Assembly: GCF_044704955.1 (NCBI RefSeq)
Contig: NC_091994.1
Location: 25,606,001 to 25,670,000, forward strand
Source of the DNA: Pristiophorus japonicus
Lineage: Eukaryota
Direction: 5' to 3'
Length of the DNA stretch: 64,000 nt
The notes beneath the pieces are model-generated. The model saw nothing but the letters and a program-made list of their open reading frames with translations, made no database searches and had not been told where the DNA came from. Made by a program: the position numbers and the translations under genes. Of the stretch, positions 2,595 through 34,217 are shown piece by piece (position 1 is the stretch's first letter; each line of letters begins with the position of its first letter).

Positions 2595-3003
2595 TAACGT
2601 CTCAATTTCAAAATTCTCATCCTTGTTTTCAAATCCCTCTATGGCCTTGTCCTCCCTATCTCTGTAATCTCCTCCAGCCCCACAACCCACCGAGATGACT
2701 GCGTCCCTCTAATTGTGCCCTCTTGAGCACAATTATAATCACTCAACCATTGGTGGCCATGCCTTCGGTTGCCTAGGCCCTAAGCTCTGGAATTCCCTGC
2801 CTAAACCTCTCCGCCTCTCTACCTCTCTTTCCTCCTTCAAGACGCTTCTTAAAACCTACCTCTTTGACCAAGCTTTTGCTCACCTGCCCTAATTTATTCT
2901 TATGCGGCTCAGTGTCAAATTCTTTGTCTCATAATACTCCTGTGAAGCACCTTGGGACATTTCACTACGTTAAAGTTGTTATATAAATACAAGTTGTTGT
3001 TGC
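2595..3003 (+). mobile_element. L2-type LINE 3' end
   Basis: Encodes FKILILVFKSLYGL..PYL..LWNSLP-like sequence; ends tataaatacaag(ttg)n; same family as 59222-59495. Confidence 0.8.
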
Positions 3004-4461
3004 TGTATTCATTTCCAGGCAATCTGGTGTTGGGAACTCAAGCTCAAGAGGAATTGGGGGAGCCTCACTTGTTGGTGGGGTGGAGGTCGATAGTGCCAAT
3101 ATATGGCCTTTCAAATTGTAATTTTAATGACTGGAAAGTTACGAGGGTCACAAAATCGAGCTTAATGTCCTCCAGACCTGGTTCTGTAATCTGCCTTTCC
3201 ATTGAGCGAGGTTCCCCGCCAGAAGCACAAACTGCTCGACCTTGTCCCTTTGTCATGACAGCTCCAAGCTCGACGCCGTTGGCCCAGAGGCAATGGTTAT
3301 ATACGAGAAATGCTAAAGGAGGGAAGAGGGCCGAAGCAGAATGGAATTCGCTGTGGAATCTCTTTAAATAAAAATGACTGAAATTAGATTGCAGAATTGG
3401 GTTGTGAAAGAAGCGGACACTTGGACGCTCTTTCCCCATTCTGTGATGTGCATGTGGATTGCATGTGCTTGCTTTCTAAACACGGCAGGAGACAATTAGC
3501 CCTAATATTTTTACACCACAGACCAATTAAAGATTATTAGGATCATGTTCATGCCCTCACATACACACACAGCAGGGCAACAGGGAGTAGAGCAATTCTA
3601 TTTAATAATCATTTTTGATGGAGTGAAAAAGGTTAGTATTGTCATATTCTCAGTGGAAAATGAAACCATTTAAGTGTCTGCAATATATTTCAAATTAGAT
3701 TCACTATCAATATTGTTACCTGCCTTATCAGATCAGATTTGATTAGAAAAAAATACCATGCCAATCAATATTTCAAATCAGTATGAGTTGTTTTGTTTCC
3801 AGAATGACTCATAAATACTGAACTATTGTTAAAGCTGCTAACTCCTGCTGCTGGCTTTCCTATTTCTAGGGAAAAGCAAAATCCTAAAAATATATTTTTT
3901 TCAATGTTCTCCCATCCGTGGCAAAGTATTTGCACTGTCAGTGGGCATTAACCGCATCACTTTGTGTGCTGGTGCAAGTGCCCTCTGTGTTTCCATTCCC
4001 CAATCCAGCCATTAGCTGGAATTCAAAGGTGAATTCATCGTTCATCCCACAAGCTGAACAAAATTCGCCTGTCATGCAGGACCTCCTTATTGGATGATGT
4101 TTGGTAGAATAATTTGACAGAACAGATTCTGGAGCTCCGCAGTTTTACAAACACCATCAGGCACTTGTCTACTGTAATTCTAAAGTATATGAAATATCCA
4201 TGATAAAAATGCTTTCAAATGTCACAAATAAAAATGGAATGCATAAATACACCAACATTGCATATCATGTTAGTCATACATTGATATCAAATATATTTAT
4301 TTATATATTACAATTTGTGTATAGCAAACACTGTGTATGTGGCTCACTTACCTCTGGCAGCACTTTCCCCATTACACTCTGTTAACATCGTTAATGTTAT
4401 AAAGCAGCGTATTCTCTCCCTCCCCATGGACAATGCCATAGGAATCTGCTAGCAATATATT

Positions 4462-8500: not shown

Positions 8501-9159
8501 CATCCTATTAGATTGCAGTGTGCTAGCCACATATTAATGGACCAATTACTGTATTAACAAAATCAAAATTTCCAGAATCATTGCTTATGATAGGACTCCT
8601 ATTGATTTCACTAGCTGCTTTTGTTTGTTTCTATCAGGTTTTAGCCATAGTTCTATTTTCACAACGGATGTTTGTGTAAACATCTTTTAGATGTATCACA
8701 CAAATGTAGTAACAGTGAAATGAGATTCCCTTCACAGCTATTTTCCTGCACGTAGCAGACAATCTAAATGATAGGAATGTTGCCACTAAACCACAGTGTA
8801 CTAATCAACTAAACTTATGATGAAACAGCAATTAGAGCAATTATACGTGGATGGATCTCATTTGAATGAACGAGACTGGCATGCATTTTTTAAATGGGGA
8901 GGTTAAACTTGTACAATTAAAGTCATATTGGAAATAAAATTTAATAGCTCAGTCTTTATAAATGAGATTACAATTTCATTATATCTGTACTTGATATACT
9001 GAGAAAATATTGAACTATTCACCATGATTTGGTTTTGGATCTTTTGCATAAGCACTACCTAGCTGCTAGTTATCCATCAGCAGAATCTCGTAACTGTTGC
9101 TTGAAAGTTATTCTAACCACTTCCTAAAGAGAGCCCCATCTTACCTCTGCATCGTCCTC

Positions 9160-9470
9160 CAGCTTAACTTCCCCTCTCACAACCTTCAGTTCCCCAACTG
9201 GCTTTTTGTGTATTGCCCTCCCTTTGGTGATATGAGCCTTCAGCCGCCTCAGTCTTACTGTCTGGATCTAACTACCTAAACCTCTCCGGCTCTTCACTTC
9301 TCTCGCCCGATTCAATGACCTTCTCAAAATCCATCTTTACAACCAAGCTTCAGTCAGCTCCTAACTCTTGCACTACAGTTTGTTATCTCTCCTTTATTCC
9401 CTTTTATTCTCGATGAAACCCTTAGGATGTTTCTTTTTACATTAAGGTGTTATAGAAACACAATTGTTGA
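9160..9470 (+). mobile_element. Degraded L2-type 3' end
   Basis: Diverged match to 2720-3003 (cctaaacctctcc, ttacattaaggtgttatagaaacacaattgttg). Confidence 0.6.
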
Positions 9471-9569
9471 GAAAAATGTATGATGATGTATAGCTATGCC
9501 ATTATATCACTAATCATGTTTGCCTTCAATTATCAGATGTATTATATTTTGCATAGTATAAATAAGAAC

Positions 9570-9828
9570 AATAGGTAAGAGCATAACTTTCAAATTAGAA
9601 CGAAGCAGTTCAAGGGTGATGTCAGGAAGCACTTCTTCACACAAAGGGTGGTGGAAATTCTTGTGCTTGCTCCCCCAAAAAGCAGTTGAAAATTGAAAAT
9701 TCCAAAACTGAGATTGATAGGTTTTTGTCAGGCAAGGATATTAAGGGTTATGGAACCAAGGTAGGTAGATGGAGTTAAGATGCAGATCAGCCAAGATCCA
9801 ATTGAATGGTGGAACAGGCTCGATGGGC
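9570..9828 (+). mobile_element. CR1 3' fragment
   Basis: aggaagcacttcttcacacaaagggtggtgg and gaatggtggaacaggctcga are CR1 3' motifs; the tail appears to resume at ~10127. Confidence 0.8.
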
Positions 9829-10124
9829 TGTTAGAAATCAGGGGTGTACAAAATGTATATGGTTATGCGACTAAAATTGTGTAGTGAAGAATACAGTGTT
9901 TAAATTGTAATGTTAAATTTGGAGCCAAAATGTCTCCTCAGACTAGTATTAGATGCTTAGAAATGCTAATGTTTTGGTAGCCTGCTGAGATATTATAGCA
10001 TTCTGCACTATGACAACCATTATCTGTTGTTTAAGTTAGCACTTCAATTTTGGATATGTATCTTTAAGATAATTTGTTATAGAAAGACTTAGGATGAATG
10101 GAAGTTGTTAGAGTTAATGTAAAC
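9829..10124. mobile_element. Possible LTR fragment inserted in a CR1 tail
   Basis: Starts tgttag, ends aaaca and interrupts the CR1 3'UTR; no TSD seen. Confidence 0.35.
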
Positions 10125-10708
10125 ATTTTCTACCTGTTCCTATATTTTTTTCCCAGATGAAAACTGCATTGCTATTGTTTATGCTGCCGCATTCTATATC
10201 TCTGTCTCCGCACGTAATTCCCCAGAAAGGCACCATGGCAGAATTTAAAGGGAGTTTCAAACAGGCTGTCCCTGACTATTCCAAGAAGTAGTTTCTTCAA
10301 AAAATCCTCAATATCAATGACAACTCTCCCTTAATCCGATAACCGAGTTAAAATAAATATGCTCTTTTAGGCAATGTTTGCCAGAGCATCTCTCAAGTCA
10401 ATATTTTTAACTGTTTTACATTTTCAAAATCCTTCTGCTTAATCCATTAACCCAATATTTAAAATGAATTTGAACAATAACCTTCCCAACACTGAAAAGA
10501 TGCACACAAAGGTCAAACTTATGGTGGAACACACCAAATAATTATATAGAAAAGGCACTGGAAAATTAGAGAGCAATTGCCTATCAATCACATGACTCAG
10601 TTACTTTATGCACAATCAGGGAACGTAATCTTCAAACTGTAAATAACCTGTGAGAAAGAGGGAGCTGAATGAACCAAATATTCTGCACTTGTTCATTATT
10701 CTCTTATT

Positions 10709-11355
10709 GGGGTTAAAATTAGTATGCAATGCACCTGTTTTACACCAGCAAAAAGGGGCACAAAGTGTCCCAATTTAATAATGGGATGGCCCAATCTGCA
10801 GTCGTGATCCCACTGCTAAATTTGTGTGGCCCTTTTTTTTTTAAGCATCCTGAGCAGATACCTAAAGCTGGCATTAGGCCCCTTGACTATGTTAAGGAGA
10901 GACTTAATGCCTGTTTATGGACCCCATTGCAAGATTAGTTATCGATGAGTGGGGCAGATATTGGACCTGCCCTGCTCAGGAACATTCAGCAACCCCTGTG
11001 GTCGCCAACTACAGGTAAATTTGTGTTTGTTTTTTATTAAACGTAAAATCCTTGTGGAGCCAGAAGGAGCAGGATTGCTCCTCAACTCCACAGGTGTCGT
11101 GATAGCACACCACCCCACCCCACCCCCACATCCCCCAAATCCCTCAGAGCCCACTCCAACTCTCCTCCAGAGACTTACCTGAGGGCCACTGCCAGCAAGG
11201 CAAATGGCCCTAAATTGCTTTTTGCCTTCGGGCGAGCTGCCTGTAGAGGCACGACCAGCACTAGCAGCTTGTTGGAAATGCAGTATGCAGATGAGGCCCG
11301 AGGACCATTTTCTATTGATGCTTGGGTCTCCTGGGCCCAAAGACATTTCTGCCCC
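10709..11355. mobile_element. Non-autonomous PIF/Harbinger-like element
   Basis: TIRs ggggttaaaatt ... catttctgcccc; att on both flanks (10706-10708, 11356-11358). Confidence 0.7.
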
Positions 11356-11689
11356 ATTAAGTCTGCAGCTGAAATGCAGAGGTTTATTGCTGCTGAGGAG
11401 GTGAATGCTTTTCACAGGATTTCTGGCAAGATTCCACAGTTATTAAATGATGAATAATAGAAAAATTCTCACAGCCTTAATGAAATATATGATAAATCAT
11501 TCATTATGCGTTATCCCTCATGAAGTGTTCATTTTATTACTACTTGTTAATGGACAAGAAAATTCAAGAGAAAGATGTAATTTTCTAAAATGGAAGGGGT
11601 GTCACTATTTAAAATGAGTTGTTGAGATACAAGTTCCATTAAGCTTACAGCTTTGTTTAATTCAAAGGCTAGAGTTAAGGAAGATACTT

Positions 11690-11978
11690 TTCTTCTTAGG
11701 CAGTCCCTCGTATCAAGGATGACTTGCTTCCACGCCAAAAAGGGTTGAGTTCACAGGTGTTTCAATGAAGGACCTAGTTTCCAGGTCCGAACTACATGTT
11801 GAAAGGTGGAAGATGCCCGTGCGTGGATTTTTTTTAAAAACATGTGGTGGCCGTTGCACCCCAGCCACCACACGGGCTTGACAGAGCTAGGTCTTGGTCC
11901 AGTGACAAGGATTAACCAAGACGACTGGAGACCAGCTCTGCTGCACGGACCTAGTGCACACACATATCGCAGTGTGGG
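11690..11978 (-). mobile_element. Short non-autonomous element with an RTE-type 3' tail
   Basis: Minus-strand 3' end gtggaagcaagtcatccttgatacgagggactgcct(aag)n matches the RTE tails at 31660-31710 and 34222-34270; upstream body is non-coding. Confidence 0.75.
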
Positions 11979-12387
11979 TTCTCGCCACAGATGTTGCCTG
12001 ACCTGCTGAGAGACTGTTTAGTGAACGTGGAATATTGGTTTTCAAAATGCTTCATTACCCAATCATTCATTTAGCCTTCACCAAGCTTCTCAAAGTCCTG
12101 CAATGATATGCAAATATTTACTTTGTCATTCTTCAACTTCCTGTAGTTTAATGACATTAAGTTTCTGTACCTGTACAACTTTTCTAAAAGAGTCAAAAGA
12201 TCCATATTTCTTTCTATAGTCACACCTGAGTTTCGCTTCCATTAAGATTTAATGGAATAAATTACAGCAACTTATCTTACTCTTCTAACTGATGATTAAA
12301 GATATTTTCTGCTACTGATCCTAGATGATCAAGTACAAACTTGCAATAAAGCAAAATCTATAATCCAAGAAAGACACCTATGCTTAC

Positions 12388-12816
12388 CTGAACTCCTTAT
12401 GCCTGTAATAATGTTTGATGCAAAATTGCCTTCTGTCATATCCTTCTTCTCATCTGCAATCCGTTGTAAAGTCTTGAATAAGTTTGAAAACTCATTATCA
12501 TCATAGGCAGTCCCTCGTAATTGAGGAAGACTTGCTTCCACTCTTCGCATGACTTTACTATTCTCAGGCAAAGAGACAAACAATTTTCTGTATTGCTCGT
12601 CGACACGATATGCTTTTAGGAAAAGGTTGAAAACTGCCTTTGTTTCATTGCTCAGATGACTCCTGAGGGCATAAGCTGGATACTAATGTAAATACCATTT
12701 CTTCTGGTGACATTTGATCTTTGCAGTCACTTTCCACCAAGGATCAGTAAAATGAAACCATCCAAACACCTTGTAATGTACACCGGAGACAAGGTCTTTG
12801 ATTGTAACGAACCACC
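12388..12816 (-). pseudogene. Decayed exon similar to the N-terminal region of DNA helicase B (HELB)
   Basis: Translation VTIKDLVSGVHYKVFGWFHFTDPWWKVTAKIKCHQKKWYLH*YPAYALRSHLSNETKAVFNLFLKAYRVDEQYRKLFVSLPENSKV..EFSNLFKTLQRI resembles recalled HELB (KVFGRFPITGAWWRVKV..GFPSYFLQSDMS..ALFLKEC..NFENLRETLRTF). Stop at 12683-12685; RTE-tail insertion; donor cag|gtaagc at 12388/12387; candidate acceptor ttggcag| at 12817. Confidence 0.7.
12494..12545 (-). mobile_element. RTE 3' tail-only insertion (~50 bp)
   Basis: catcataggcagtccctcgtaattgaggaagacttgcttccactc is nearly identical to the tail at 34225-34268. Confidence 0.85.
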
Positions 12817-13009
12817 CTGCCAACCGAAAGAGGTTGTGATGGAAGTTGCACCGTTGGACATAGGTACACGAGGTATGTGAACTTCAGGGTAAGGTGAATT
12901 GATTTCACAAGTTCCTTATCAATGTGCTATGTGAAGATTTAGGGATACCTTGGTGTCCAGCAATTGATAGTGGAAGTGGGGATAGTTCTTTGAGGAAGTG
13001 AGAGATATG

Positions 13010-13470
13010 ACAGATGGGAGAAATGCAGTGGATGTAGTGTACATGGATTATTAGAAAGCCTTTGACAAGGTAGCACACAGGAGACTACTGGAGCAGATGA
13101 AAGAATATGAAATAAAGGGAGGGTTGCTAGTTAGATTAAAAACTAGTTCGAAGGGAGGAAACAGAGAGTACAAGTTAAGGGCAGTTGGAAGTGTGGATAT
13201 AGAGCTAAAAGGAGAACTCCAAATTTGCAGACAATATTAAAATGGGAAAAACAGCAAATCATTCTGAGGACGGAAGGAATCTGCAAGGGAATATGTTTCA
13301 TGATTGTGAGTTGGGCAAAAAAGTGACAGATGGAATTCAATGTCAGCCAGTGTGAGGTGATATATTTTGGAAAAACAAATAATGATACTTTGAATGATGG
13401 AAGGTTGGGTGATGTGAAAGGAGAGGGGGATTTGGGGGTTCAGGTACACGAGACATTAAAAGCAGCACCT
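13010..13470 (+). mobile_element. Old CR1 RT internal fragments
   Basis: gcagtggatgtagtgtacatggattattagaaagcctttgacaagg = AVDVVYMDY*KAFDK; later WQMEFN..CEV-like sequence. Confidence 0.75.
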
Positions 13471-14632
13471 CAAGGGCATAAGGCCATATAACAGCGCCTT
13501 CCCAAAATGTTATTCCTGCCCAAACTTGCGGGCATAGACAGACAAGTTTTTCAGATTCATTCTTTTCGGATTCTACACAATCCATGAAATCTGTGCAGGC
13601 CGCAAAGGGGGACAGCCCTAGTTAGTGTACAGCCAAGGCAATAAAGGTTCATTTTGAAGCGGTTCACTCTTTCGTGTCTGTTTTGCGGGCTCTACAGATG
13701 TGCGACCAGCCAAAGCACTTCTTGGGAAGAATTCCTTCAGCAAGTTAGTTTATAATTTTGACAAGGCTTCTAAATCTCCTGCCAGTGCCCACCAAACTAT
13801 AGAATTGCCCATTCCCTGTGGCTGTAATTCCTCCTTTGCCCAGTCTTAACATAGGGATTCTCTTCTTTAGAGCCTGTCTGTCTACCTCAACGTCTTAACA
13901 ACAGCCAATCTTGTAACTAGACTGTGAAACGAGCACTGTGACATGGAGATCAGGAAATCCCAGTGCTTGGTTCACCAACAGTCAGGCTGTCTATTGCAAC
14001 GGTCTTGAAGTAAGCAGAGAATGAGGAGAAGGGGGTAGAGGGGAGAGGCCCCGATGGAAGAACCAGCTGGAAGGAGAAATCAGTGATCACATTCCAAGTT
14101 GCAACAACAGATATGCAGCAAGTGAAGTGTCACTTTGATAACTTGACAAAAAATTCAGAAAACCATATTCAGTGAGAAGCCATTACTGATAATTATAAGA
14201 CATTTAATGGAAAAAATTAATCACTGATAAATTAGAGTGTTTATAACTTCACGGTAATTGTTCACTGGCATGATGGTATGCAGCAGTCTATTCACTTCAT
14301 AGATCCTTATTAAAATGTGTTGCTATTGCTGTCCCCAGCTTTCGACATCAGCAAACCCAACAATACTAATTGTACCCAGTTGAGATTTACACTTGCTCAT
14401 TTCTATCTTTCTTATGTTTGAAAAAAAACGTTCTCATAAAACCAAACCAAACTCCATCAGCACAAAACCCCTGGAAAATACCATTACCACAATAACAGCC
14501 TGCTTTTTGTTTCAGCAACTCGGAAATCCTGAAGCAAACTCCAAAAGAAGGCGCAATTCTTTTCAAAGCAGTTGTAATATTTTATTTATCTGAACGAATA
14601 TAAAACAAAGACTACATTCTGTAACACCAGAT

Positions 14633-14725
14633 GCAACAACAACAACATGTATTTATATAGTGCCTTTAGCATAGTAAAATTTCCCAATGCGCTTCACAGG
14701 AGTATTATAAGACAAAAACTTTGAT
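14633..14725 (-). mobile_element. L2-type tail fragment
   Basis: (caa)n followed by atgtatttatatagtgccttta..cttcacaggagtattat is the reverse complement of 2930-3003. Confidence 0.7.
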
Positions 14726-15599
14726 GCAATCAGCAGAATGGTGATGCTGTGCCCCTGATTATGTCATAAGGTTCTCGTCACATTCTGGATGCGGGAGAAG
14801 TGTTCAAATGCCCCTGTGCCAGATCAGTAACCAGAAAAATGTTGTTAAATAACGGACAAAGGAATTTCATATGAATGCATTCACCACTACTTCAGGGTAA
14901 CTGACAAGCCATTTTATTATGATGACAATCTTTAATAATCAACTTAGAGAGTTTAACTGATAAACGTTTGCATTGGCTGTGTGCGGTTTTAGAGCGCTGT
15001 ATTTAAATAGTGCAGGCATTATAATATGCTTTTTAGAGGTCTGTATGTTTAATGCTTTTTTAAAATAATTATTCTAAACATGTGCTAGTAATTTGTATGC
15101 TTTTTTTTTTAAGACTAGAATAATTTTCTTTTACCATGAGCAGATTTGCTCAAATAAGCTAAACATAAAGAAACATGGCAATTTCAGAATCTGAGCTTGC
15201 CAACAATCACTGCGCTCAAAAAGCAACTCACTGTCTGGCATTGATTTGGAACGGTTCAATGATGTGAGATGACATATCAATGCGAGTCTTTCTTTCTTCC
15301 GTATTTGGAGATAGGAATTCGGAGAATGACAAATGCAGTCACTTTCCTCAAGGTGCTGAAACCAAGTAATAACAGCCATCTCCACCATCTTGATATACAA
15401 CATCTGAAATATTACAAGACCATTGCACCATCCTTATCGTCGTGGTTAAAGGCGGTTTCTTTCTAAATGATATTAATATTCAAAGAAAACCTTTTGGAAA
15501 CTGCATGATTAAAGCTGTTTTCTTTCTAAGGAATAATAAAAACGCACACTTTTCACTAATGGGTATGTTTTGTGACACATTATAACTTCTAGGAGTATT

Positions 15600-15655
15600 T
15601 GTAACCCCACTTTTTAAAAAAGGAGGGAGAGAGAAAACAGGGAATTATAGACCGG
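15600..15655 (+). mobile_element. Isolated 56-bp internal fragment of young CR1 ORF2
   Basis: Identical to 27248-27303 (VTPLFKKGGREKTGNYRP); flanks are unrelated to CR1. Confidence 0.92.
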
Positions 15656-16157
15656 CTACAAGTTTCCTTGCAACATGTGTGGCACAGCTTTGTAACTAGC
15701 TTCATGGTTACCTAAAGGCTGCAAAGCGAATTCCCCACCAGTACATAGAAGCATGACGGCTTGCAGATACGGTTAGTAGCATAATGGCAGGTGAAGAAAA
15801 TACGACTCTGGTGCATGCTGATCTCTCTGCCATGCCCTTATATCTTTTCCAAGTTCAATCCTGAAATACTGTATTTAGTGCACTTTAAACCGTTATCTGT
15901 AATTTTAGTTTAGACTTAATGACTGCCACAAGACTCTGAAGAATGCACTTAGATGCCTTGTTCTGCATGACCTCCTTTGAAATTTGTATTGTACTAGCTT
16001 CTTTTGCTTACATTTTTAATATGTATCATTTACAGGCAGTTTTCCAGTCAATTAGCAGATAAAATTGTCTATTATAGGTGCCATGTAAACGTAATGGCCG
16101 AGAAATTGGATAAGGCCCAAAAACGGGAGTAGGGTTGCGATACAGCCAGTTGTCGTA

Positions 16158-16502
16158 GTGCACATTGGTACCAACGACATAGGTAAAAAAAAAAGGGATG
16201 AGGTCCTACGAAACGAATTTAAGGAGCTAGGAGCTAAATTAAAAAGTGGGACCTCAAAAGTAGTAATCTCGGGATTGCTACCAGTGCCACGTACTAGTCA
16301 GAGTAGGAATCGCAGGATAGCGCAGATGAATACGTGGCTTGAGCAGTGGTGCAGCAGGGAGGGATTCAAATTCCTGGGGCATTGGAACCGGTTCTGGGGG
16401 AGGTGGGACCAGTACAAACCGGACGGTCTGCACCTAGACAGGACCGGAACCAATGTCCTAGGGAGAGTGTTTGCTAGTGCTGTTGGGGAGGAGTTAAACT
16501 AA
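16158..16502 (+). pseudogene. CR1 ORF1 C-terminal half (SGNH/GDSL esterase-like domain)
   Basis: HIGTND and PDGLHL blocks of SGNH hydrolases. Confidence 0.9.
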
Positions 16503-19484
16503 TATGGCAGGGGGATGGGAACCAATGCAGGGAGACAGAGGGAAACAAAAAGGAGACAAAAGCAAAAGACAGAAAGGAGATGAGAAAAAGTGGAGGGCAG
16601 AGAAACCCAAGGCAAAGAACAAAAAGGGCCACTGTGCAGCAAAGTTCTAAAAGGACAAAGGGTGTTAAAAAAAACAAGCCTGAAGGCTTTGTGTCTTAAT
16701 GCAAGGAGTATCCGTAATAAAGTGGATGAATTAACTGTGCAAATAGATGTTAACAAATATGATGTGATTGGGATTACAGAGACATGGCTCCAGGATTATC
16801 AGGGTGGGAACTCAACATCCAGGGGTATTCAACATTCAGGAAGGATAGAATAAAAGGAAAAGGAGATGGGGTAGCATTGCTGGTTAAAGAGGAGATTAAT
16901 GCAATAGTTAGGAAGGACATTAGCTTGGATGATGTGGAATCTATATGGGTAGAGCTGCAGAACACCAAAGGGCAAAAAATGTTAGTGGGAGTTGTGTACA
17001 GACCTCCAAACGGTAGTAGTGATGTTGGGGAGGGCATCAAACAGGAAATTAGGGGAACATGCAATAAAGGTGCAGCAGTTATAATGGGTGACTTTAATAT
17101 GCACATAGATTGGGCTAACCAAACTGGAAGCAATACGGTGGAGGAGGATTTCCTGGAGTGCATAAGGGATGGTTTTCTAGACCAATACGTCGAGGAACCA
17201 ACTGGGGGGAGGCCATCTTAGACTGGGTGTTTTGTAATGAGAGAGGATTAATTAGCAATCTCATTGTGCGAGGCCCCTTGGGGAAGAGTGACCATAATAT
17301 GGTGGAATTCTGCATTAGGATGGAGAATGAAACAGTTAATTCAGAGACCATGGTCCAGAACTTAAAGAAGGCTAACTTTGAAGGTATGAGGCGTGAATTG
17401 GCTAGGATACATTGGCGAATGATACTTAAGGGGTTGACTGTGGATGGGCAATGGCAGACATTTAGAGACCGCATGGATGAACTACAACAATTGTACATTC
17501 CTGTCTGGCGTAAAAATAAAAAAGGGAAGATGGCTCAACCGCGGCTATCAAGGGAAATCAGGGATAGTATTAAAGCCAAGGAAGTGGCATACAAATTGGC
17601 CAGAAATAGCAGCGAACCCGGGGACTGGGAGAAATTTAGAACTCAGCAGAGGAGGACAAAGGGTTTGATTAGGGCAGGGAAAATGGAGTACGAGAAGAAG
17701 CTTGCAGGGAACATTAAGACGGATTGCAAAAGTTTCTATAGATATGTAAAGAGAAAAAGGTTAGTAAAGACAAACGTAGGTCCCCTGCAGTCAGAATCAG
17801 GGGAAGTCATAACGGGGAACAAAGAAATGGCAGACCAATTGAACAAGTACTTTGGTTCGGTATTCACTAAGGAGGACACAAACAACTTTCCGGATATAAA
17901 AGGGGTCAGAGAATCTAGTAAGGAGGAGGAACTGAGGGAAATCCTTATTAGTCAGGAAATTGTGTTGGGGAAATTGATGGGATTGAAGTCCGATAAATCC
18001 CCAGGGCCTGATGGACTGCATCCCAGAGTACTTAAGGAGGTGGCCTTGGAAATAGCGGATGCATTGACAGTCATTTTCCAACATTCCATTGACTCTGGAT
18101 CAGTTCCTATCGAGTGGAGGGTAGCCAATGTAACCCCACTTTTTAAAAAAGGAGGGAGAGAGAAAACAGGGAATTATAGACCAGTCAGCCTGACCTCAGT
18201 AGTGGGTAAAATGATGGAATCAATTATTAAGGATGTCATAGCAGCGCATTTGGAAAGAGGTGACATGATAGGTCCAAGTCAGCATGGATTTGTGAAAGGG
18301 AAATCATGCTTGACAAATCTTCTGGAATTTTTTGAGGATGTTTCCAGTAGAGTGGACAAGGGAGAACCAGTTGATGTGGTATATTTGGACTTTCAGAAGG
18401 CTTTCGACAAGGTGCCACACAAGAGATTAATGTGCAAAGTTAAAGCACATGGGATTGGGGAAGTGTGCTGACATGGATTGAGAACTGGTTGTCAAACAGG
18501 AAGCAAAGAGTAGGAGTAAATGGGTACTTTTCAGAATGGCAGGCAGTGACTAGTGGGGTACCGCAAGGTTCTGTGCTGGGGCCCCAGCTGTTTACACTGT
18601 ACATTAATGATTTAGACGAGGGGATTAAATGTAGTATCTCCAAATTTGCGGATGACACTAAGTTGTGTGGCAGTGTGAGCTGCGAGGAGGGTGCTATGAG
18701 GCTGCAGAGTGACTTGGATAGGTTAGGTGAGTGGGCAAATGCATGGCAGATGAAGTATAATGTGGATAAATGTGAGGTTATCCACTTTGATGGTAAAAAT
18801 AGAGAGACAGACTATTATCTGAATGGTGACAGATTAGGAAAAGGGGAGGTGCAACGAGACCTGGGTGTCATGGTACATCAGTCATTGAAGATTGGCATGC
18901 AGGTACAGCAGGCGGTTAAGAAAGCAAATGGCATGTTGGCCTTCATAGCGAGGGGATTTGAGTACAGGGGCAGGGATGTGTTACTACAGTTGTACAGGGC
19001 CTTGGTGAGGCCACACCTGGAGTATTGTGTACAGTTTTGGTCTCCTAACTTGAGGAAGGACATTCTTGCTATTGAGGGAGTGCAGCGAAGGTTCACCAGA
19101 CTGATTCCTGGGATGGCGGGACTGACATATCAAGAAAGACTGGATCAACTGGGCTTGTATTCATTGGAGTTCGGAAGAATGAGAGGGGATCTCATAGAAA
19201 CATTTAAAATTCTGACGGGTTTAGACAGGTTAGATGCAGGAAGAATGTTCCCAATGTTGGGGAAGTCCAGAACCAGGGGTCACAGTCTAAGGATAAGGGG
19301 TATGCCATTTAGGACCGAGATGTGGAGAAACTTCTTCACCCAGAGAGTGGTGAACCCGTGGAATTCTCTACCACAGGAAGTTGTTGAGGCCAATTCACTA
19401 AATATATTCAAAAAGGAGTTAGATGTAGTCCTTACTACGAGGGGGATCAAGGGGTATGGCGAGAAAGCAGGAATGGGGTACTGA
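16503..19484 (+). pseudogene. CR1 ORF2 (AP endonuclease + reverse transcriptase), frameshifted
   Basis: LNARSI, GITETWL, YRPP, MGDFN, SDHN (APE); NYRPVSL, YLDFQKAFD, GVPQGSVLGP, FADD (RT); split over ORFs 16590, 16784, 17158 and 18465. Confidence 0.95.
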
Positions 19485-20286
19485 AGTTGCATGTTCAGCT
19501 ATGAACTCATTGAATGGCGGTGCAGGCTCGAAGGGCCGAATGGCCTACTCCTGCACCTATTTTCTATGTTTCTATGTTTCTAGCTATAAACTTATTTGAC
19601 AGTAACTCGAGCAAAACATTTAATTTTTACTCATTATTCGCATATAGTTCTCTTAAAAGAATATCTTACATAAAGATGTAATACATGCTGGAAACCCATT
19701 GGTAAATATAATTTATGTTTATTCCATTGTTTAAAGATGATAGGGCAGATCTGCTGTGCGCATTATGTGTAACAAAATCAGAAACACATTTCTTAGAAAC
19801 AGGTTTACAATTTTGTTACATGAAGCTCGTTTCCCCCCCCCCCAAAGAAAGGAAACACCTTCAGTAAGCACTCCCAAGACAAATTCCTAAAAGAAGAGGA
19901 CATAGGGAAGTTGGTATGAGAAGCTGCTGCCCTTAAGGAGTTGAGTTGGAGAGGAATTTCCAGAGCTTTTTCTGAAATGGCTTTAGCGCTGTTTTTCCTG
20001 GCACTTTGCCTTTCGCAGGAGATTTCATGGTTAGGGGGTAGATCAAAGGTGTACAAGGAAGGTTACAACATTGCCAAGATGGGTGGGTGTGATGGTCCTT
20101 TCCTGTCACTCTTTTTGCATGTTCCCTTGGCATTTACTGACGCGCAGCCTACTCATATGTCGATGTCCTGCCTTAGGATGAATCATCGGTTTGCTCCTTA
20201 CACTTTAGAAAATAAATCTATCAATGACCAACACGAGATAAATTCAGTTGCTACCTGGTGCTGCCATGACATTTTCAGAAAAGTAC

Positions 20287-24145: not shown

Positions 24146-24704
24146 GATTGTTCTAAAATAATAATCAATATACAAGAGCGTAATTTTGTTTTTAAAAGGG
24201 TTTTAATAAGAGAATTTGTTTTCGAGACCCCATACAGTGCAAGCTGTGGTGTGCCAACTATTAATAACCATGCACTCTTACTGAAGGCTAAATAAGGTAG
24301 GGCCAATTTTCTGGTTGCCATGCCTGCTCATGGACCATCCAAGCCAGGAAATTGGGCTGAATCTCTACCCATTTTGCGCCGCCTATTATTTTCAGCTGGA
24401 TGCAAGACTGGCCTAAAGTTGTGTCACCCAAAAATGGGCAAAGACCTCTTATTTTAATACAAGACTCAATGCGAGAGGCGGCGGCAGTCCGAGAGGCAGG
24501 AGTGCGTGGTGTCGGAGCGGCCTATAAAAGGCCCAGCGGCAGCGAGAGGCGTACTTGTGCAGCGACAGGGAGAAGGCAAAAAAGAAGTAGAAAGAAACAG
24601 AAAGGTGACGTCACAGCCAAGGGGGTAAGTGATTGGCGAGTAGTTTTTCTTTTTTCTCAGTGAGTAAACTTTAGCATTGTTGTTGCCTATCTAAGGGTTA
24701 AGTC

Positions 24705-25621
24705 ATGGCAGGACAGCTCGGTCACGTGTTATGCTCCTCCTGTACCATGTGGGAACTCAGAGACGACTCCAGTGTCCCGGACGACTACGTGTGCGGGAAG
24801 TGTATCCGCCTCCAGCTCCTGACGGACCACGTTGCGGAGTTGGAGCAGAGGGTGGATGCACTCTGGAGCATCCATGATGCTGAGAATGATGTGAGTAGCA
24901 CGTGTAGCGAGTTGGTCGTACCGCAGGTGAAGGGTCCACAGCCAGATAAGGAATGGAAGACCAGCAGGAAGAGCAGTACAAGGAAGGTAGTGCAGGGGTC
25001 CCCTGTGTTCATCCCCCTGCAAAACAGATACACTGCTTTGAGTACTGTTGAGGGGGATGACTCATCAGGGGAGGGCAACAGCAGCCAAGTTCATGACACC
25101 GTGGCTGGCTCTGTTGCACAGGAGGGCAGGAAAAAGAGTGGGAGAGCGATAGTGATCGGGGATTCAATTGTAAGGGGAATAGATAGGCGTTTCTGCGGCC
25201 GCAACCAAGACTCCAGGATGTATGTTGCCTCCCTGATGCAAGGGTCAAGGATGTCTCGGAGTGGGTGCAGGACATTCTAAAAAGGGAGGGAGAACAGCCA
25301 GTTGTCGTGGTGCACATTGGTACCAACCTCATAGGTAAAAAAAGGGATGAGGTCCTACGAAATGAATTTAAGGAGCTAGGAGCTAAATTAAAAAGTAGGA
25401 CCTCAAAAGTAGTAATCTCGGGATTGCTACCAGTGCCACGTGCTAGTCAGAGTAGGAATCGCAGGATAGCGGAGATGAATACGTGGCTTGAGCAGTGGTG
25501 CAGCAGAGAGGGATTCAAATTCCTGGGGCATTGAAACTGGTTCTGGGGGAGGTGGGACCAGTACAAACCGGACGGTCTAGGGGGAGTGTTTGCTAGTGCT
25601 GTTGGGGAGGAGTTAAACTAA
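24705..25621 (+). pseudogene. CR1 ORF1: CxxC..CxxC zinc motif, coiled coil, SGNH esterase-like domain (disrupted)
   Basis: CSSCTM..CGKC; LQNRY..L; VIGDS; HIGTN. Frameshift ~25220, TGA at 25532-25534 and a 30-bp deletion removing the His of DGLHL. Confidence 0.92.
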
Positions 25622-28604
25622 TATTGCAGGGGGATGGGAACCAATGCAGGGAGACAGAGGGAAACAAAAAGGAGACAAAAGCAAAAGACAGAAAGGAGAT
25701 GAGGAAAAGTGGAGGGCAGAGAAACCCAAGACAAAGAACAAAAAGGGCCACTGTACAGCAAAATTCTAAAAGGAAAAAGGGTGTTAAAATAACAAGCCTG
25801 AAGGCTTTGTGACTTAATGCAAGGAGTATCCGTAATAAGGTGGATGAATTAACTGTGCAAACAGATGTTAACAAATATGATGTGATTGGGATTACAGAGA
25901 CGTGGCTCCAGGATGATCAGGGCTGGGAACTCAACATCCAAGGGTATTCAACATTCAGGAAGGATAGAATAAAAGGAAAAGGAGGTGAGGTAGCATTGCT
26001 GGTTAAAGAGGCGATTAATGCAATAGTTAGGAAGGACATTAGCTTGGATGATGTGGAATCGATATGGGTAGAGCTGCAGAACACCAAAGGGCAAAAAATG
26101 TTAGTGGGAGTTGTGTACAGACCTCCAAACAGTAGTAGTGATGTTGGGGAGGGCATCAAACAGGAAATTAGGGGTGCATGCAATAAGGGTGCAGCAGTTA
26201 TAATGGGTGACTTTATTATGTACATAGATTGGGCTAACCAAACTGGAAGCAATACGGTGGAGGAGGATTTCCTGGAGTGCAAAAGGGATGGTTTTCTAGA
26301 CCAATATGTCGAGGAACCAAATAGGGGGAGGCCATCTTAGACTGGGTGTTGTGTAATGAGAGAGGATTAATTAGCAATCTTGTTGTGCGAGGTCCCTTGG
26401 GGAAGAGTGACCATAATATGGTGGAATTCTGCATTAGGATGGAGAATGAAACAGTTAATTCAGAGACCATGGTCCAGAACTCAAAGAAGGCTAACTTTGA
26501 AGGTATGAGGCGTGAATTGGCTAGGATACATTGGCGAATGATACTTAAGGGGTTGACTGTGGATGGACAATGGCAGACATTTAGAGACCGCATGGATGAA
26601 TTACAACAATTGTACATTCCTGTCTGGCGTAAAAATAAAAAAGGGAAGGTGGCTCAACCGTGGCTATCTAGGGAAATCAGGGATAGTATTAAAGCCAAGG
26701 AAGTGGCATACAAATTGGCCAGAAATAGCAGCGAACCCGGAGACTGGGAGAAATTTAGAACTCAGCAGAGGAGGACAAAGGGTTTGATTAGAGCAGGGAA
26801 AATGGAGTACGAGAAGAAGCTTGCAGGGAACATTAAGACGGATTGCAAAAGTTTCTATATATATGTAAAGAGATAAAGGTTATTAAAGACAAACGTAGGT
26901 CCCCTGCAGTCAGAATCAGGGGAAGTCATAACGGGGAACAAAGAAATGGCGGACCAATTGAACAAGTACGTTGGTTCGGTATTCACTAAGGAGGACACAA
27001 ACAACCTTCCGGATATAAGAGGGGTCAGATGGTCTAGTAAGGAGGAGGAACTGAGGGAAATCCTTATTAGTCAGGAAATTGTGTTGGGGAAATTGATGGG
27101 ATTGAAGTCCGATAAATCCCCAGGGCCTGATGGGATGCATCCCAGAGTACTTAAGGAGGTGGCCTTGGAAATAGCGGATGCATTGACAGTCATTTTCCAA
27201 CATTCCATTGACTCTGGATCAGTTCCTATCAAGTGGAGGGTAGCCAATGTAACCCCACTTTTTAAAAAAGGAGGGAGAGAGAAAACAGGGAATTATAGAC
27301 CGGTCAGCCTGACCTCAGTAATGGGTAAAATGATGGAATCAATTATTAAGGATGTCATAGCAGCGCATTTGGAAAGAGGTGACACGATGGGTCCAAGTCA
27401 GCATGGATTTGTGAAAGGGAAATCATGCTTGACAAATCTTCTGGAATTTTTTGAGGATGTTTCCAGTAGAGTAGACAAGAGAGAACCAATTGATGTGGTA
27501 TATTTGGACTTTCAGAAGGCTTTCGACAAGGTCCCACACAAGAGGTTAATGTGCAAAGTTAAAGCACATGGGATTGGGGGTAGTGTGCTGACATGGATTG
27601 AGAACTGGTTGTCAGACAGGAAGCAAAGAGTAGGAGTAAATGGGTACTTTTCAGAATGGCAGGCGGTGACTAGTGGGGTACCGCAAGGTTCTGTGCTGGG
27701 GCCCCAGCTGTTTAGATTGTACATTAATGATTTAGACGAGGGGATTAAATGTAGTATCTCCAAATTTGCGGATGACACTAAGTTAGGTGGCAGTGTGAGC
27801 TGCAAGGAGGATGCTATGAGGCTGCAGAGCGACTTGGATAGGTTCGGTGAGTGGACAAATGCATGGCAGATGAAGTATAATGTGGATAAATGTGAGGTTA
27901 TCCACTTTGGTGGTAAAAACAGAGAGACAGACTATTATCTGAATGGTGACAGATTAGGAAAAGGGGAGGTGCAACGAGACCTGGGTGTCATGGTACATCA
28001 GTCATTGAAGGTTGGCATGCAGGTACAGCAGGCGGTTAAGAAAGCAAATGGCATGTTGGCCTTCATAGCGAGGGGATTTGAGTACAGGGGCAGGGAGGTG
28101 TTGCTACAGTTGTACAGGGCCTTGGTGAGGCCACACCTGGAGTATTGTGTACAGTTTTGGTCTCCTAACTTGAGGAAGGACATTCTTGCTATTGAGGAAG
28201 TGCAGCGAAGGTTCACCAGACTGATTCCTGGGATGGCGGGACTGACCTATCAAGAAAGACTGGATCAACTGGGCTTGTATTCACTGGAGTTCAGAAGAAT
28301 GAGAGGGGACCTCATAGAAATGTTTAAAATTCTGATGGGTTTAGACAGGTTAGATGCAGGAAGAATGTTGCCAATGTTGGGGAAGTCCAGAACCAGGGGT
28401 CACAGTCTAAGGATAAGGGGTAAGCCATTTAGGACCGAGATGAGGAGAAACTTCTTCACCCAGAGAGTGGTGAACCTGTGGAATTCTCTACCACAGAAAG
28501 TAGTTGAGGCCAATTCACTAAATATATTCAAAAAGGAGTTAGATGTAGTCCTTACTATTAGGGGGATCAAGGGGTATGGCGAGAAAGCAGGAATGGGGTA
28601 CTGA
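25622..28604 (+). pseudogene. CR1 ORF2 (APE + RT), disrupted; RT segment 26946-28604 still open
   Basis: Same motifs as copy A; stops at 25810-25812 and 26874-26876, frameshift ~26325; 552-aa open segment containing FADD. Confidence 0.95.
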
Positions 28605-28949
28605 AGTTGCATGTTCAGCCATGAACTCATTGAATGGCGGTGCAGGCTAGAAGGGCCGAATGGCCTACTCCTGCACCTATTTTCTATGCTTCTATGTTTC
28701 TATGTAAGAAGCACATGCACGACCCATCAATTTTCTCAGAGAATGCAGTGTTGAGGGCACCGATATAAAACAGATAATCATGTTCTGGTTTGACAAGATC
28801 CATGTTTAAAGGGGAAGCAACTTATTTGGAAAGTTTATCTTTCGGGGTTTATGATAACTGAACGTTTGCTTTTTTTAGCAACTTGTTTGTTTTTGCAAGT
28901 TTTTGCCTCAGATTTTTGACATCAAGATTTATTATTGCTTCAGTCAAAA

Positions 28950-31900
28950 TTCTGTTTTCTTATGCCTCAGGCTTGTTCCTAGCTATCCCAGGGATCTGGG
29001 CAACATCAGGCAATCGTAAGTGCATAGATACATCAAGCAAGTCACTGATGCATTGTTTGCCAAGGCAAACCACTTCATCATTCGCCCCCAGAAATTCAGC
29101 AGCCGAATGAGAGACCACTGCACTTTTTCACATTATAAATCTCCTCAATGTTCAGGCCTTGTTGTTGGTATTTATGTGGCGATCCCAGTCCCGGAACACA
29201 GTTCGATGCTCTTCATGAACTATAAATGGGCCCATCAATGTCCAGCTGGTTAGTACCAGGCTGTAGTCATGACACCTTCACAACCCTCTTCCTGCTCAGA
29301 AGCAATGCCGCAGAAAAGTCAACGCAGGGGCACTCAAAGACTCAGTTGAGAGAGCCCTATGCAGCCAGCGCCTCACTGCCAACCCTTGATGACCCCGAGT
29401 CGCAACGTGCCCACAGCGCCTGGTCTGCCCTCAAGGCCACCATAACCAGTGCCTGTGAAGAGACGCTCGGTCACTCAAGCAGGAAACACCAAGACTGCTT
29501 TGATGAGAATGACCAGGAGATCCAGGAGCTAATAAAACTCAAGCGCTGTGCATTTCTCAACTTAAAGCAGCAACCCAATTCGAGAGCAGTAAAGCAGCTC
29601 TACAGATGGCTGGAGGCTGAGGTCCAACAAAAAACCCGCGACCTAAAGAATAGATGGTGGGTGGAGAAAGCTCAGGAGATCCAGCAGCTGGCCGACAGCT
29701 ATGAAGTGCGATGATTCTTCACCGTAGTTAAGTCTACCTATGACCCAAGCACCTAAGGCCCCATCCCACTGCTGGTCAAGAACGGGGAGACACTCATTAA
29801 GGATACCGAAGCAGTCGGGGCACTTCAAAGATCTCCTTCATCAAGACTCTGCCTTTGACACGACTGTCCTCAACTCCATCCTGCAGCATGCTACCCACCA
29901 CCACCTCCACAAACGCCAACCCTGCACGAAGTAGAAAAGGCCATCCGTCAGCTCAAGAACAACAAGGCATCAGGAACAGATGGAATCCCCGCCGAGGCAC
30001 TATAGTATGGCGGAGAAGCACTATTGGCACGAAAGCATGACCTCATCTCTCTTATCTGGAAGGAGGAGAACATGCCGGGAGATCTCAGAGATGCTGTAAT
30101 CATGACCATTTTCAAAAAAGGGGAAAAGTCCGGCTGCGGCAACTACAGAGGAATCTCCCTATTGTTGGCCACTGGGAAAGTCATCGCTAGAATCCTCCTC
30201 AGCCATCTTCACCCTGTGGCTGAAGAGCTCCTCCCAGAGTCACACTGCAGATTCTGTCCACCAAGGGGTACAATGGACAACTACAAGAGAAATGCAGAGA
30301 ACAGCAGCAACCCTTGTATATGGCCTTCTTTGACCTCACAAAGGCCTTTGACACTCTCAACCATGAGGGATTATGGAGCGTCCTCCTCCATTTCAGCTGC
30401 CCCCAAAAGTTTGTCACCATCCTCCGCCTGCTCCACGATGACATGCAACCCATGATCCTGACCAACAGATCCATCACTGATGCAATCCACATCCGGACCG
30501 GGGTCAAGCAAGGCTGAGTCATCGCGCCAACGCTCTTCACGATCTTCCTCACTGCAATGCTCCATCTCACACTCAACAAGCTCCCCGCTAGAGTAGAACT
30601 AAACTATAGAACCAATGGGAACCTGTTCAACCTTCGTCGCCTCCAGGCTAGATCCAAGATCGTCCCATCCTCTGTCATCGAACTACAGTACGCAGACGAC
30701 GCTTGTGTCTGCGCACACTCAGAGGCCAAACTCCAAGCCTTCGTCAACATTTTCACCGAGGCGTATGAAAGCATGGGCCTTACACTAAACATCCGTCAGA
30801 CAAAGGTCCTCCACCAACCTGACCCCGCCTCACAACACTGCCCCCGCCTCGCAGCACTGCCCACCAGTCATCAAAATCCACGGCATGGCCTTGGACAACA
30901 TCGACCATTTTCCATACGTCGGTAAGCTACTATCAGCAAGGCCAGACATCGATGAAGAGGTCCAACACCACCTCCAGTGTGCCAGCGCAGCCTTCGGTTG
31001 TCTGAGGAAGAGGGTGGTTGAAGACCAGGATCTCAAATCTGGCACCAAGCTTATGATCTACAGGGAAGTAGTGATACTCATCCTCGTATATGGCTCAGAG
31101 ACTTGGACCATATACAGTAGACACCTCAAAGCGCTGGAGAAGTACCACCAGCGTTGCCTCCACAAGATCCTGCAAATCCACTGGGAGGCTAGACACACCA
31201 ACATCAGTGTTCTCGATCAGGCCAACATCCCAGCATCGAAGCACTGACCACACTCGACCAGCTCCGTTGGGCAGGCCATATCGTCTGCATGCCCGACACG
31301 AGACTCCCAAAGCAAGCACTCTACTCATAACTCCTACATGGCAAGCGAGCCCCAGGTACGCAGAGGAAACGTTCCAAGGACACCCTCAAAGCCTCCTTGA
31401 TAAAGTACAACATCCCCACCGGCACCTGGGAATCCCCGGCCCAAGACCACCCTAAGTGGGGAAGAACATCTGGGAGGGTGCTGAGCACCTCGAATCTTGT
31501 CGCAGAGAGCATGCAGAAAACAAGCGCAGACAGTAGAAGAAGTGTGCAGCAAACCAGACTCCCCACCCACCCTTTCCTCCAACCACTGTCTGTCCCACCG
31601 GTGACAGACTGTAACTCCCATATTGGACTGTACAGTCACCTGAGAATTCACTTTTAGAGTGGAAGTAAATCTTCCTCGATTTCGAGGGACTGCCTATGAT
31701 GATGATTATGACAACCCTCTGTGCCTCGGCAATTTAAAAGAGAAGGTAGACATCTACTAATGCTTTTTGGAGACCAAGACTACCTCCTTTAGCCCTGGCA
31801 CCATTGAGACAGCCATGAACAGCAACACAGCAAAGATAGAGCAAGGCTCATGTGCCATTAGCACCGTTATCGAACCATAGGCTTTGAAGAAGTACCTCAG

Positions 31901-33905: not shown

Positions 33906-34217
33906 CAGTGGAAATAAAGTATAAGCAAATTTAAGTCCCTAAAAGTGACGAGTGTTGTGTAACCAGTGTTTTTTGCCCTGGTTCCTCCCCTTGGTGATGT
34001 ATGTTTTGTGTGCACCAATCCTAATCCTCTGCTCCTTCTTGGTACTTTACCAGTAGGAGTATGTAAGCAGATGGGACTGAGGTGGCCCTGTATCTCCTTG
34101 TGCTCAGTCATGAGATGGCCCAGCAGCATGTCTGCTCCAGCAGTGAAGGGTTGCTCCTGTCGGCTTGCCAGCATATAATTTGGCACTGAAGGGGCAATTG
34201 GATGGGGCAGATGTCAA

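What the first reader, a model, noticed from the sequence alone, without database searches (positions are those of the whole stretch)
12388..12870. Orphan, decayed HELB-like exon stranded among repeats
Seen: a minus-strand frame (KVFGWFHFTDPWWKVT..*YPAYALRSHLS..VFNLFLKAY..LFVSLP..FSNLFKTL) ending at a strong cag|gtaagc donor, with one stop and an RTE-tail insertion. The ORF track shows only its 3' part. Established, from recall: this motif order matches the N-terminal region of vertebrate DNA helicase B, a RecD2-like SF1B helicase. I found no helicase-core exons (GKGGCGKT, APTGKAA, DEGS, TIHTFQGSE) elsewhere by eye. The retained donor argues against a processed pseudogene. Inference: relic of a lost HELB paralog, or a HELB-like gene carried by a large DNA element or virus. 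A multi-copy, TIR-bounded HELB cassette would be a new system.
Basis: partly seen in the sequence, partly recalled or inferred. Interest (0 to 1): 0.75.

Follow-up and report, generated by a model that had tools for sequence, protein, structure and literature searches.

The report
Semi-processed HELB retrocopy in a shark
This is a broken piece of the DNA-repair helicase gene HELB in a shark-type genome, likely pasted back from a half-spliced RNA (first intron gone, second kept) and apparently one of a few such copies, so it is probably an ordinary dead retrocopy whose only open interest is whether a small jumping element in the kept intron served as the handle.

Summary
The HELB identity is confirmed (73% to sawshark HELB, E 1e-53), and no other HELB exon lies in the window. 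It is not a lone exon. About 53 nt of exon 1 (12860-12808) run straight into exon 2 with no intron, followed by the intron-2 donor and intron-2-like DNA. Intron 1 is inferred at that spot from 12 of 12 unannotated-contig homologues. A parent-like DNA contig also stops aligning exactly at 12808. An intact, spliced parent transcript is 7% different. The window copy carries a stop, two 1-nt insertions and a 60-nt RTE tail, and its differences look neutral (4 synonymous of 19). It is sister to sawshark HELB (100/99), so it is not an ancient paralog. At least two further decayed copies exist, with shared derived letters but not the window's 5' flank. No TIR, TSD or viral relative was found. Verdict: a 5'-truncated, semi-processed retrocopy in a small family. 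The retained donor does not argue against retroposition. An RTE-tailed SINE in intron 2 may have been the handle, but the copy's 3' end is unmapped.

The parts
12808..12860 (-). 3' tail of HELB exon 1 (5'-truncated), with two 1-nt insertions near 12820-12824 that break the frame
   Evidence: tblastn of P0002 residues 55-65; RNA-type contigs X5 rec 17 and X6 rec 30 align to 12860 with 2 gaps (tables 4 and 8)
12388..12807 (-). HELB exon 2, joined directly to exon 1 at 12808|12807 (intron 1 absent); decayed
   Evidence: intron-1 position inferred from 12 of 12 unannotated-contig homologues and from a parent-like DNA contig whose alignment ends at 12808 (table 3 from_end)
12683..12685 (-). premature stop TAG where the other contigs laid there, DNA and RNA-type, read TGG (Trp)
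   Evidence: table 3 row 12684
12495..12554 (-). 60-nt 3' tail of an RTE LINE inserted in exon 2, replacing 3 nt, in frame (+19 codons); absent from the other contigs that span the site
   Evidence: joint in all 4 runs laid (tables 5, 5c); 90% over 51 nt to 31656-31706 and 96% over 46 nt to 34225-34270; alignment
12011..12387 (-). retained 5' part of HELB intron 2, starting with the GTAAGC donor (identity as intron 2 inferred)
   Evidence: donor at the conserved S-G|GT position in homologues; DNA contig X1 rec 4 spans the donor with 6 differences; X6 rec 24 matches 11990-12351 with 20 differences and 1 gap
11690..12010 (-). about 320-nt SINE-like repeat sharing its last ~65 nt with the RTE LINE tail; its 5' start is shared with other copies; candidate retroposition handle and candidate 3' end of the copy (untested)
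   Evidence: (repeat joints at 12010-12011; non-window contigs X2 rec 9 and X6 rec 24 run to 11990)
12861..13500 (.). 5' flank, not HELB: 12881-12960 is covered only by window-identical contigs; old CR1 fragment on the + strand at 12986-13488
   Evidence: tables 2, 8

Best explanation
This is a broken copy of the 5' part of HELB that was likely made by reverse transcription of a half-spliced RNA (intron 1 inferred removed, intron 2 kept), likely cut short at its 5' end, and it appears to be one of a few related copies. Steps: (1) an RNA holding exon 1, exon 2 and the start of intron 2 was copied into DNA by a LINE reverse transcriptase (inferred). (2) The most likely handle is the RTE-type 3' tail of the SINE 378 nt into intron 2, which would set the copy's 3' end near 11690 (inferred, untested, about even odds). 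(3) The copies probably descend from one earlier, already mutated copy rather than each from HELB itself, since they share derived letters (inferred from contig tables). (4) The window copy then gained a stop, two 1-nt insertions and an RTE tail insertion (shown) and decayed neutrally (inferred from the substitution pattern). It lacks the start codon and the whole helicase core, so it is predicted to make no protein.
For: Exon 1 runs into exon 2 without a break. Intron 1 is inferred there from two lines. (a) In alignment A1, 12 of 12 homologues called on unannotated Logan or JGI contigs (sources) have S, A, T or P just before the invariant Val, as a cAG|GT phase-1 acceptor would give; 2 of 6 annotated spliced models do. 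(b) A DNA contig bearing the intact transcript's letters at 12760, 12770, 12773, 12780 and 12799 stops aligning at 12808 in both DNA runs (from_end 39, 36, 29), only 9 nt past its last difference, too soon for a 31-mer bubble to close. Intact parent: X5 rec 17 aligns over 12384-12860 without the insert, 29 substitutions in 417 nt. Neutral decay: of 19 displayed in-frame differences 4 are synonymous, 14 missense, 1 nonsense (p = 1.0 against 25% synonymous); at 15 of 15 non-synonymous sites the RNA-type contig has the sawshark residue. Recent origin: sister to P0002, 100/99, branch 0.13 against 0.039. Siblings: X1 rec 8 / X2 rec 16 cross the junction unbroken with 9 differences and their own 1-nt deletion at 12788; X2 rec 14 aligns 12705-12813 and then has 120 unaligned letters; most DNA depth at 12770, 12773 and 12780 carries the window's derived letters; the flank 12881-12960 is covered only by window-identical contigs. 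Retrocopies are common in cartilaginous fishes (14,081; passages of 10.64898/2026.06.26.734816), and intron-ending semi-processed copies are described (PMC4151081 passages).
Against: No target-site duplication: longest exact match 7 nt, against 7-13 nt at 60 control points; best imperfect match reached by 31-91% of controls. No poly(A) tail at a demonstrated end. The intron-1 letters of the parent were not seen: table 3 gives only where the alignment ends, and the two DNA runs are one sample. The parent-like contig has about half the depth of the window copy (4.2-4.6 against 8.6-13), unexplained. X5 and X6 are not on record as RNA; I infer it from the spliced joins. Some RNA-only letters may be differences between individuals (X1 rec 3 shares two X6 changes but not 12200 or 12214). 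Depth is no copy number (tool's warning). The 3' end is unmapped, so the SINE handle is a guess.
Confidence: 0.8

Rival explanations
1. DNA-level (segmental) partial duplicate of a HELB gene that has itself lost intron 1 in this lineage, later trimmed by rearrangement.
For: Intron-2 DNA and its donor are kept; several copies exist; no TSD or poly(A). A second DNA contig crosses the exon 1/2 junction unbroken (X1 rec 8, X2 rec 16).
Against: That contig has a 1-nt deletion in coding sequence, so it is not the intact gene. The parent-like contig stops at 12808. The intron position looks conserved in 12 of 12 unannotated homologues. The 5' flank is not shared.
Confidence: 0.1
2. One retroposition only; the sibling copies arose by segmental duplication of that first retrocopy and lost or changed their 5' flanks later. 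This differs from the best explanation in step 3 only and overlaps with it.
For: Siblings share derived letters with the window at 12436, 12676, 12770, 12773 and 12780.
Against: No diverged contig covers the window's 5' flank at 80% likeness, and one sibling leaves the alignment at 12813; contigs show presence, not absence.
Confidence: 0.35
3. HELB piece carried as cargo by a TIR-bounded DNA element or a virus.
For: More than one copy exists; a Harbinger-like transposase fragment lies in the window, 26 kb away.
Against: No inverted repeat over 25 nt in 9000-15500. The 94-nt inverted pair 2915-3008 / 14631-14724 has a third copy at 59411-59489, so it is an interspersed repeat. No relative in viral contigs. 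Loss of intron 1 needs an RNA step.
Confidence: 0.04
4. Relic of an ancient lost HELB paralog, or an exon of the true HELB locus whose other exons lie outside the window.
For: Shark introns can be long (own knowledge); the donor is intact.
Against: Sister to sawshark HELB inside cartilaginous fishes; only 7% from an intact transcript that lacks the stop, the frameshifts and the insert; exon 1 is cut at 12860 and its remainder is not found in the window.
Confidence: 0.03

Closest known systems
Semi-processed pseudogenes (rodent preproinsulin I; the TMF1 insertion in CYBB; PMC4151081, passages)
   Same: Some introns removed, one kept; the TMF1 copy also ends inside an intron; dead copy.
   Different: Those are L1-made mammalian copies; the TMF1 one has a poly(A) tail. 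Here no poly(A) or TSD was found, the host is a cartilaginous fish, and there seem to be several siblings.
SVA_F1 (MAST2 sequence carried at the 5' end of a retroposon subfamily; PMC3287187, passages)
   Same: If the SINE handle holds: 5' exons of a host gene ride on a non-autonomous retroposon and amplify from a source copy.
   Different: SVA_F1 gained MAST2 by splicing into the element and has at least 84 copies. Here the link would be read-through of an unspliced intron, the driver would be RTE, only about 3-5 loci are suggested, and the shared 3' end is untested.
SINE/LINE pairs with a shared 3' tail, stringent recognition (PMC3747384, passages)
   Same: The 11690-12010 repeat shares its last ~65 nt with the RTE LINE tails in the window.
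   Different: The mobilised unit here would be a host pre-mRNA fragment ending in the SINE, not the SINE alone.
Vertebrate DNA helicase B (HELB), SF1B (10.64898/2026.07.16.738708, passages)
   Same: Sequence of the N-terminal region, which overlaps the predicted OB fold (human residues 1-115).
   Different: No start codon, a stop, frameshifts, and none of the helicase motifs; a derivative, not a working member.

Membership tests
HELB-derived sequence | significant similarity to the HELB N-terminal region | tested here: met
   E 1.2e-53, 73% to P0002; 38 relatives at E<=0.001
Functional HELB gene | open frame with start codon and SF1B helicase motifs | tested here: not met
   stop, two 1-nt insertions, cut at 12860, no core exons in the window
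Ancient HELB paralog | branches outside the orthologues of related species | tested here: not met
   sister to Pristiophorus HELB, 100/99, in a 20-row tree
Semi-processed pseudogene | at least one intron precisely removed | tested here: met
   exon 1 and exon 2 contiguous at 12808|12807; intron position inferred from homologues and from the parent-like contig ending at 12808; the intron letters were not seen
Semi-processed pseudogene | at least one intron retained | tested here: met
   GT donor at the conserved position and ~94% matching contigs beyond it
Semi-processed pseudogene | target-site duplication and poly(A) or LINE-type tail at the 3' end | tested here: inconclusive
   no TSD above chance; 3' end unmapped; an RTE-type tail lies at 11690
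Semi-processed pseudogene | located away from the parent locus | not testable with these tools
   no genome held; no other HELB exon within the 64 kb
5'-transducing retroposon subfamily (SVA_F1-like) | several copies with the same host piece and shared diagnostic changes | tested here: met
   at least two further decayed contig types sharing derived letters
5'-transducing retroposon subfamily (SVA_F1-like) | all copies end at the element's 3' tail | not tested
   no read data for the stretch below 11990
5'-transducing retroposon subfamily (SVA_F1-like) | independent insertion sites with differing 5' ends | tested here: inconclusive
   window flank unshared and one sibling leaves the alignment at 12813; later rearrangement not excluded
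TIR DNA element or viral cargo | terminal inverted repeats and shared flanks, or viral relatives | tested here: not met

The most novel reading that the evidence does not exclude
HELB exons 1-2, 378 nt of intron 2 and an intronic RTE-tailed SINE form a small chimeric retroposon family: a transcribed source copy ends in the RTE tail, and a tail-selective RTE LINE has pasted it repeatedly with different 5' ends. This would be 5' transduction by intron read-through under a stringent LINE, a shark counterpart of SVA_F1, and a general route by which any intronic SINE could turn a nascent transcript into a mobile substrate.
Probability: 0.3. Interest if true: 0.55.

Novelty: new member of a known kind. 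Interest (0 to 1): 0.3.

Why it matters
As a dead semi-processed retrocopy it matters little: such copies are a described class and sharks hold thousands of retrocopies. It would matter more if all copies end at the intronic SINE's RTE tail. That would help explain how genomes rich in tail-selective LINEs (CR1, RTE) still make gene retrocopies, and it is directly testable with the assembly. It is also a caution for annotation: a retained donor site does not exclude retroposition.

Tried and rejected
No whole genome is held, so copy count, synteny and the parent locus could not be read directly. Pfam gave no HELB family for P0001, only a below-cut-off astrovirus capsid hit, E 0.035, rejected. 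PDB sequence search: 0 matches. Rfam on 9000-16000: one chance-level match. The look-up of sequencing runs: no RNA holder listed; X7 and the small shares were not used as evidence until laid (X5, X6 laid; X3, X4, X7 never laid). Viral contigs: 14 pattern matches, 0 confirmed. Metagenome contigs: 116 and 231 pattern matches, 0 confirmed. TSD and poly(A) searches were negative; an apparent imperfect repeat near 12950 and the SINE's 3' flank did not beat controls. The 'cag' at 12819-12817 looks like an acceptor, but the other contigs that span it read G at 12818, so it is a private change. I first read X6 rec 24 (depth 23.5) as an abundant intron-retaining isoform and dropped that: the contig includes the SINE start, which can inflate depth, and the exon contig is not broken at the donor. 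Pfam was run on 17 of the 218 ORFs of 70 aa or more, so a host gene in the window is not excluded. Pol III box matches in the SINE at one mismatch were too many to mean anything. Paper searches: HELB / DNA helicase B / pseudogene / shark gave 17 papers, 15 listed, none on HELB pseudogenes by title or abstract start; some searches gave background only. Earlier-findings look-ups by place and by sequence found nothing on HELB.

Full report
Setting. The window is repeat-dense vertebrate DNA, 43% G+C, with CR1 LINEs, RTE LINE remains and a Harbinger-like transposase fragment (the CR1 and RTE labels rest on my recall of their ORF motifs and tails, supported by RVT_1). No whole genome is held. The protein matches point to a cartilaginous fish closest to the sawshark.

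Observation. The frame, stop, donor and insertion are there. Read through with X at the stop (P0001), it matches Pristiophorus DNA helicase B at E 1.2e-53 and 73% identity, and two other shark HELBs at 53-54%. tblastn with these three proteins finds one significant place in the window. A profile of 21 full-length homologues over 858 six-frame segments finds only that place.

Homology does not begin at an acceptor. An 11-residue stretch at 12861-12829 in another frame matches P0002 residues 55-65. Contigs from two small runs (X5, X6; kind not on record, inferred RNA because they are spliced at the donor) align from 12384 to 12860 with two 1-nt gaps near 12820-12824. So about 53 nt that belong to exon 1 run straight into exon 2.

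Where intron 1 lies. Of the 38 hits I aligned 12 short ORFs from unannotated Logan or JGI contigs (sources); four other short ones fetched start too far in to be informative and were left out of this count. All 12 lose similarity just before the invariant Val and have S, A, T or P in front of it, which is what a cAG|GT phase-1 acceptor encodes; 2 of the 6 annotated models do. The nominal chance is 1.5e-7, but the rows are related and their DNA was not seen. Ten of the 12 reach the exon end; nine read S-G and one S-R, as N|GT would give, matching the window's donor. My recall that human HELB has its first two introns at the same places is not a test. In the host itself, a DNA contig with the RNA-type letters at 12760, 12770, 12773, 12780 and 12799 stops aligning at 12808 in both DNA runs (from_end 39, 36, 29; the count calibrated on X5 rec 17). 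That is the last base an acceptor AG would match, and it is 9 nt past the contig's last difference, too soon for a 31-mer bubble to close. The two runs are one sample and the loose letters were not displayed. The window copy (X1 rec 7, X2 rec 15, 0 differences) runs through this point. Intron 1 is therefore inferred missing while the intron-2 donor and following DNA are kept.

State of the copy. X5 rec 17 differs by 29 substitutions in 417 nt and lacks the insertion. The insertion is 12495-12554, replaces 3 nt, and matches the RTE LINE tails at 31656-31706 (90%) and 34225-34270 (96%). Table 3 shows 21 exon sites where the RNA-type contigs differ (30 rows of the table were cut). I left out the 2 in the frameshifted stretch. 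Of the 19 others, 4 are synonymous, 14 missense and 1 nonsense (tallied by hand), as neutral decay predicts (p = 1.0 against 25%, p = 0.0007 against 60%). At all 15 non-synonymous sites the RNA-type contig has the P0002 residue. In a 20-row tree the copy is sister to P0002 (100/99) with a branch of 0.13 against 0.039. It is a recent, lineage-specific, dead derivative, not an old paralog.

More than one copy. Besides the window type and the parent-like type, the DNA runs hold a contig that crosses the exon 1/2 junction unbroken with 9 differences and its own 1-nt deletion at 12788 (X1 rec 8, X2 rec 16). They also hold one that aligns 12705-12813 with 5 differences and then has 120 unaligned letters (X2 rec 14). 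These are too different to be alleles (inference). Only 4.6 of 34 (X1) and 4.2 of 72 (X2) depth units at 12770 carry the parent letter, and none at 12436 or 12676, so the siblings share derived letters with the window. Summed depth in 12050-12450 is a few times that of the window type, which suggests 3-5 loci, but the tool warns that depth is no copy number. The flank 12881-12960 is covered only by window-identical contigs. Some changes are distributed incongruently among siblings (12760, 12799); both would be CpG transitions and may have recurred. Some RNA-only letters in the intron may be differences between individuals.

Mechanism. A missing intron calls for an RNA step, and a 5' end in mid-exon fits a truncated reverse transcript. 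The retained intron carries, 378 nt in, a repeat of about 320 nt whose last ~65 nt match the RTE tail, and non-window contigs run into its start (X2 rec 9, X6 rec 24). Non-L1 LINEs are thought to need their own 3' tail on the template (PMC3747384, passages), so an RNA ending in this SINE would be a ready RTE substrate. That would explain the retained intron, the lack of poly(A), and, with a transcribed source copy, the shared derived letters and unshared 5' ends. It is not shown: no read data cover the stretch below 11990, and no target-site duplication was found, although young Bov-B (RTE-clade) copies usually have one (PMC13295347, passages). Polyadenylation hexamers further down (11661, 11538, 11388, 11038) leave poly(A) priming open. 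I put the RNA origin at 0.8, the SINE handle at about even odds given that, and repeated retroposition against segmental copying of one retrocopy at roughly 55:45.

No inverted repeat over 25 nt lies in 9000-15500; the one long inverted pair around the locus is an interspersed repeat; viral and metagenome scans confirmed no relative (close relatives only).

Comparison with what is known. Semi-processed pseudogenes are a described class, including a TMF1 copy that ends inside an intron (PMC4151081, passages). Cartilaginous fishes hold 14,081 retrocopies in a 244-genome survey, 95.7% species-specific (10.64898/2026.06.26.734816, passages; its supplements are closed and may list HELB copies). SVA_F1 is the closest model for a host 5' piece riding a retroposon (PMC3287187, passages). 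[quoted passage not shown] I saw no paper on HELB pseudogenes in sharks in the listing (15 of 17 shown); the library lacks most subscription papers. Earlier AI notes in this scan describe other shark retrocopies ending in SINE, RTE or CR1 tails, several in this genome. They are unchecked leads that make the handle idea less isolated, not evidence for it.

Verdict. Observation confirmed, interpretation partly supported. A new member of a known kind: a dead semi-processed HELB retrocopy in a small family. Interest 0.3. The boldest reading left open, an RTE-driven chimeric family built by intron read-through, has probability about 0.3 and would deserve about 0.55.

Noticed in passing
window 16095-19585 and 24702-28705 (+): Two young, near-intact CR1-type LINEs, 91-97% identical in the repeat blocks listed, 9.1 kb apart; ORFs of 450, 346 and 575 aa; RVT_1 hit in 18444-19481.
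   Followed up: no
window 29226-31733 (+) and 34200-36400 (-): Two decayed RTE-type LINE copies in opposite orientation, about 81-86% complementary in blocks; their tails match the insertion in the HELB exon.
   Followed up: partly
window 38822-39313 (+) and 41290-41931 (-): DDE_Tnp_4 (Harbinger-like) transposase fragment, E 7.9e-17, facing a second ORF with no Pfam hit.
   Followed up: no
proteins P0011 (Hucho hucho, 201 aa) and P0019 (Aquarana catesbeiana, 183 aa, 'DNA helicase B-like'): Annotated models made of HELB exon 1 plus exon 2 that end just past the intron-2 position; P0019 has a long branch (1.03). They may be truncated isoforms, annotation breaks or similar partial copies in other vertebrates.
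   Followed up: no
run X6, record 24 (window 11990-12351): A 1110-nt contig in an RNA-type run matches the retained intron-2 stretch with 20 differences and runs on past 11990; its remaining ~750 nt would show what follows the SINE in the parent or a sibling.
   Followed up: partly
window 15600-15655: 56-nt exact copy of an internal piece of the young CR1 at 27248-27303, standing alone.
   Followed up: no
P0002 residues 922-951 against window 33078-33167, 19068-18982, 28188-28105: Weak similarity (E 0.005-0.017) between the sawshark HELB C-terminal tail and antisense CR1 frames; probably chance.
   Followed up: no
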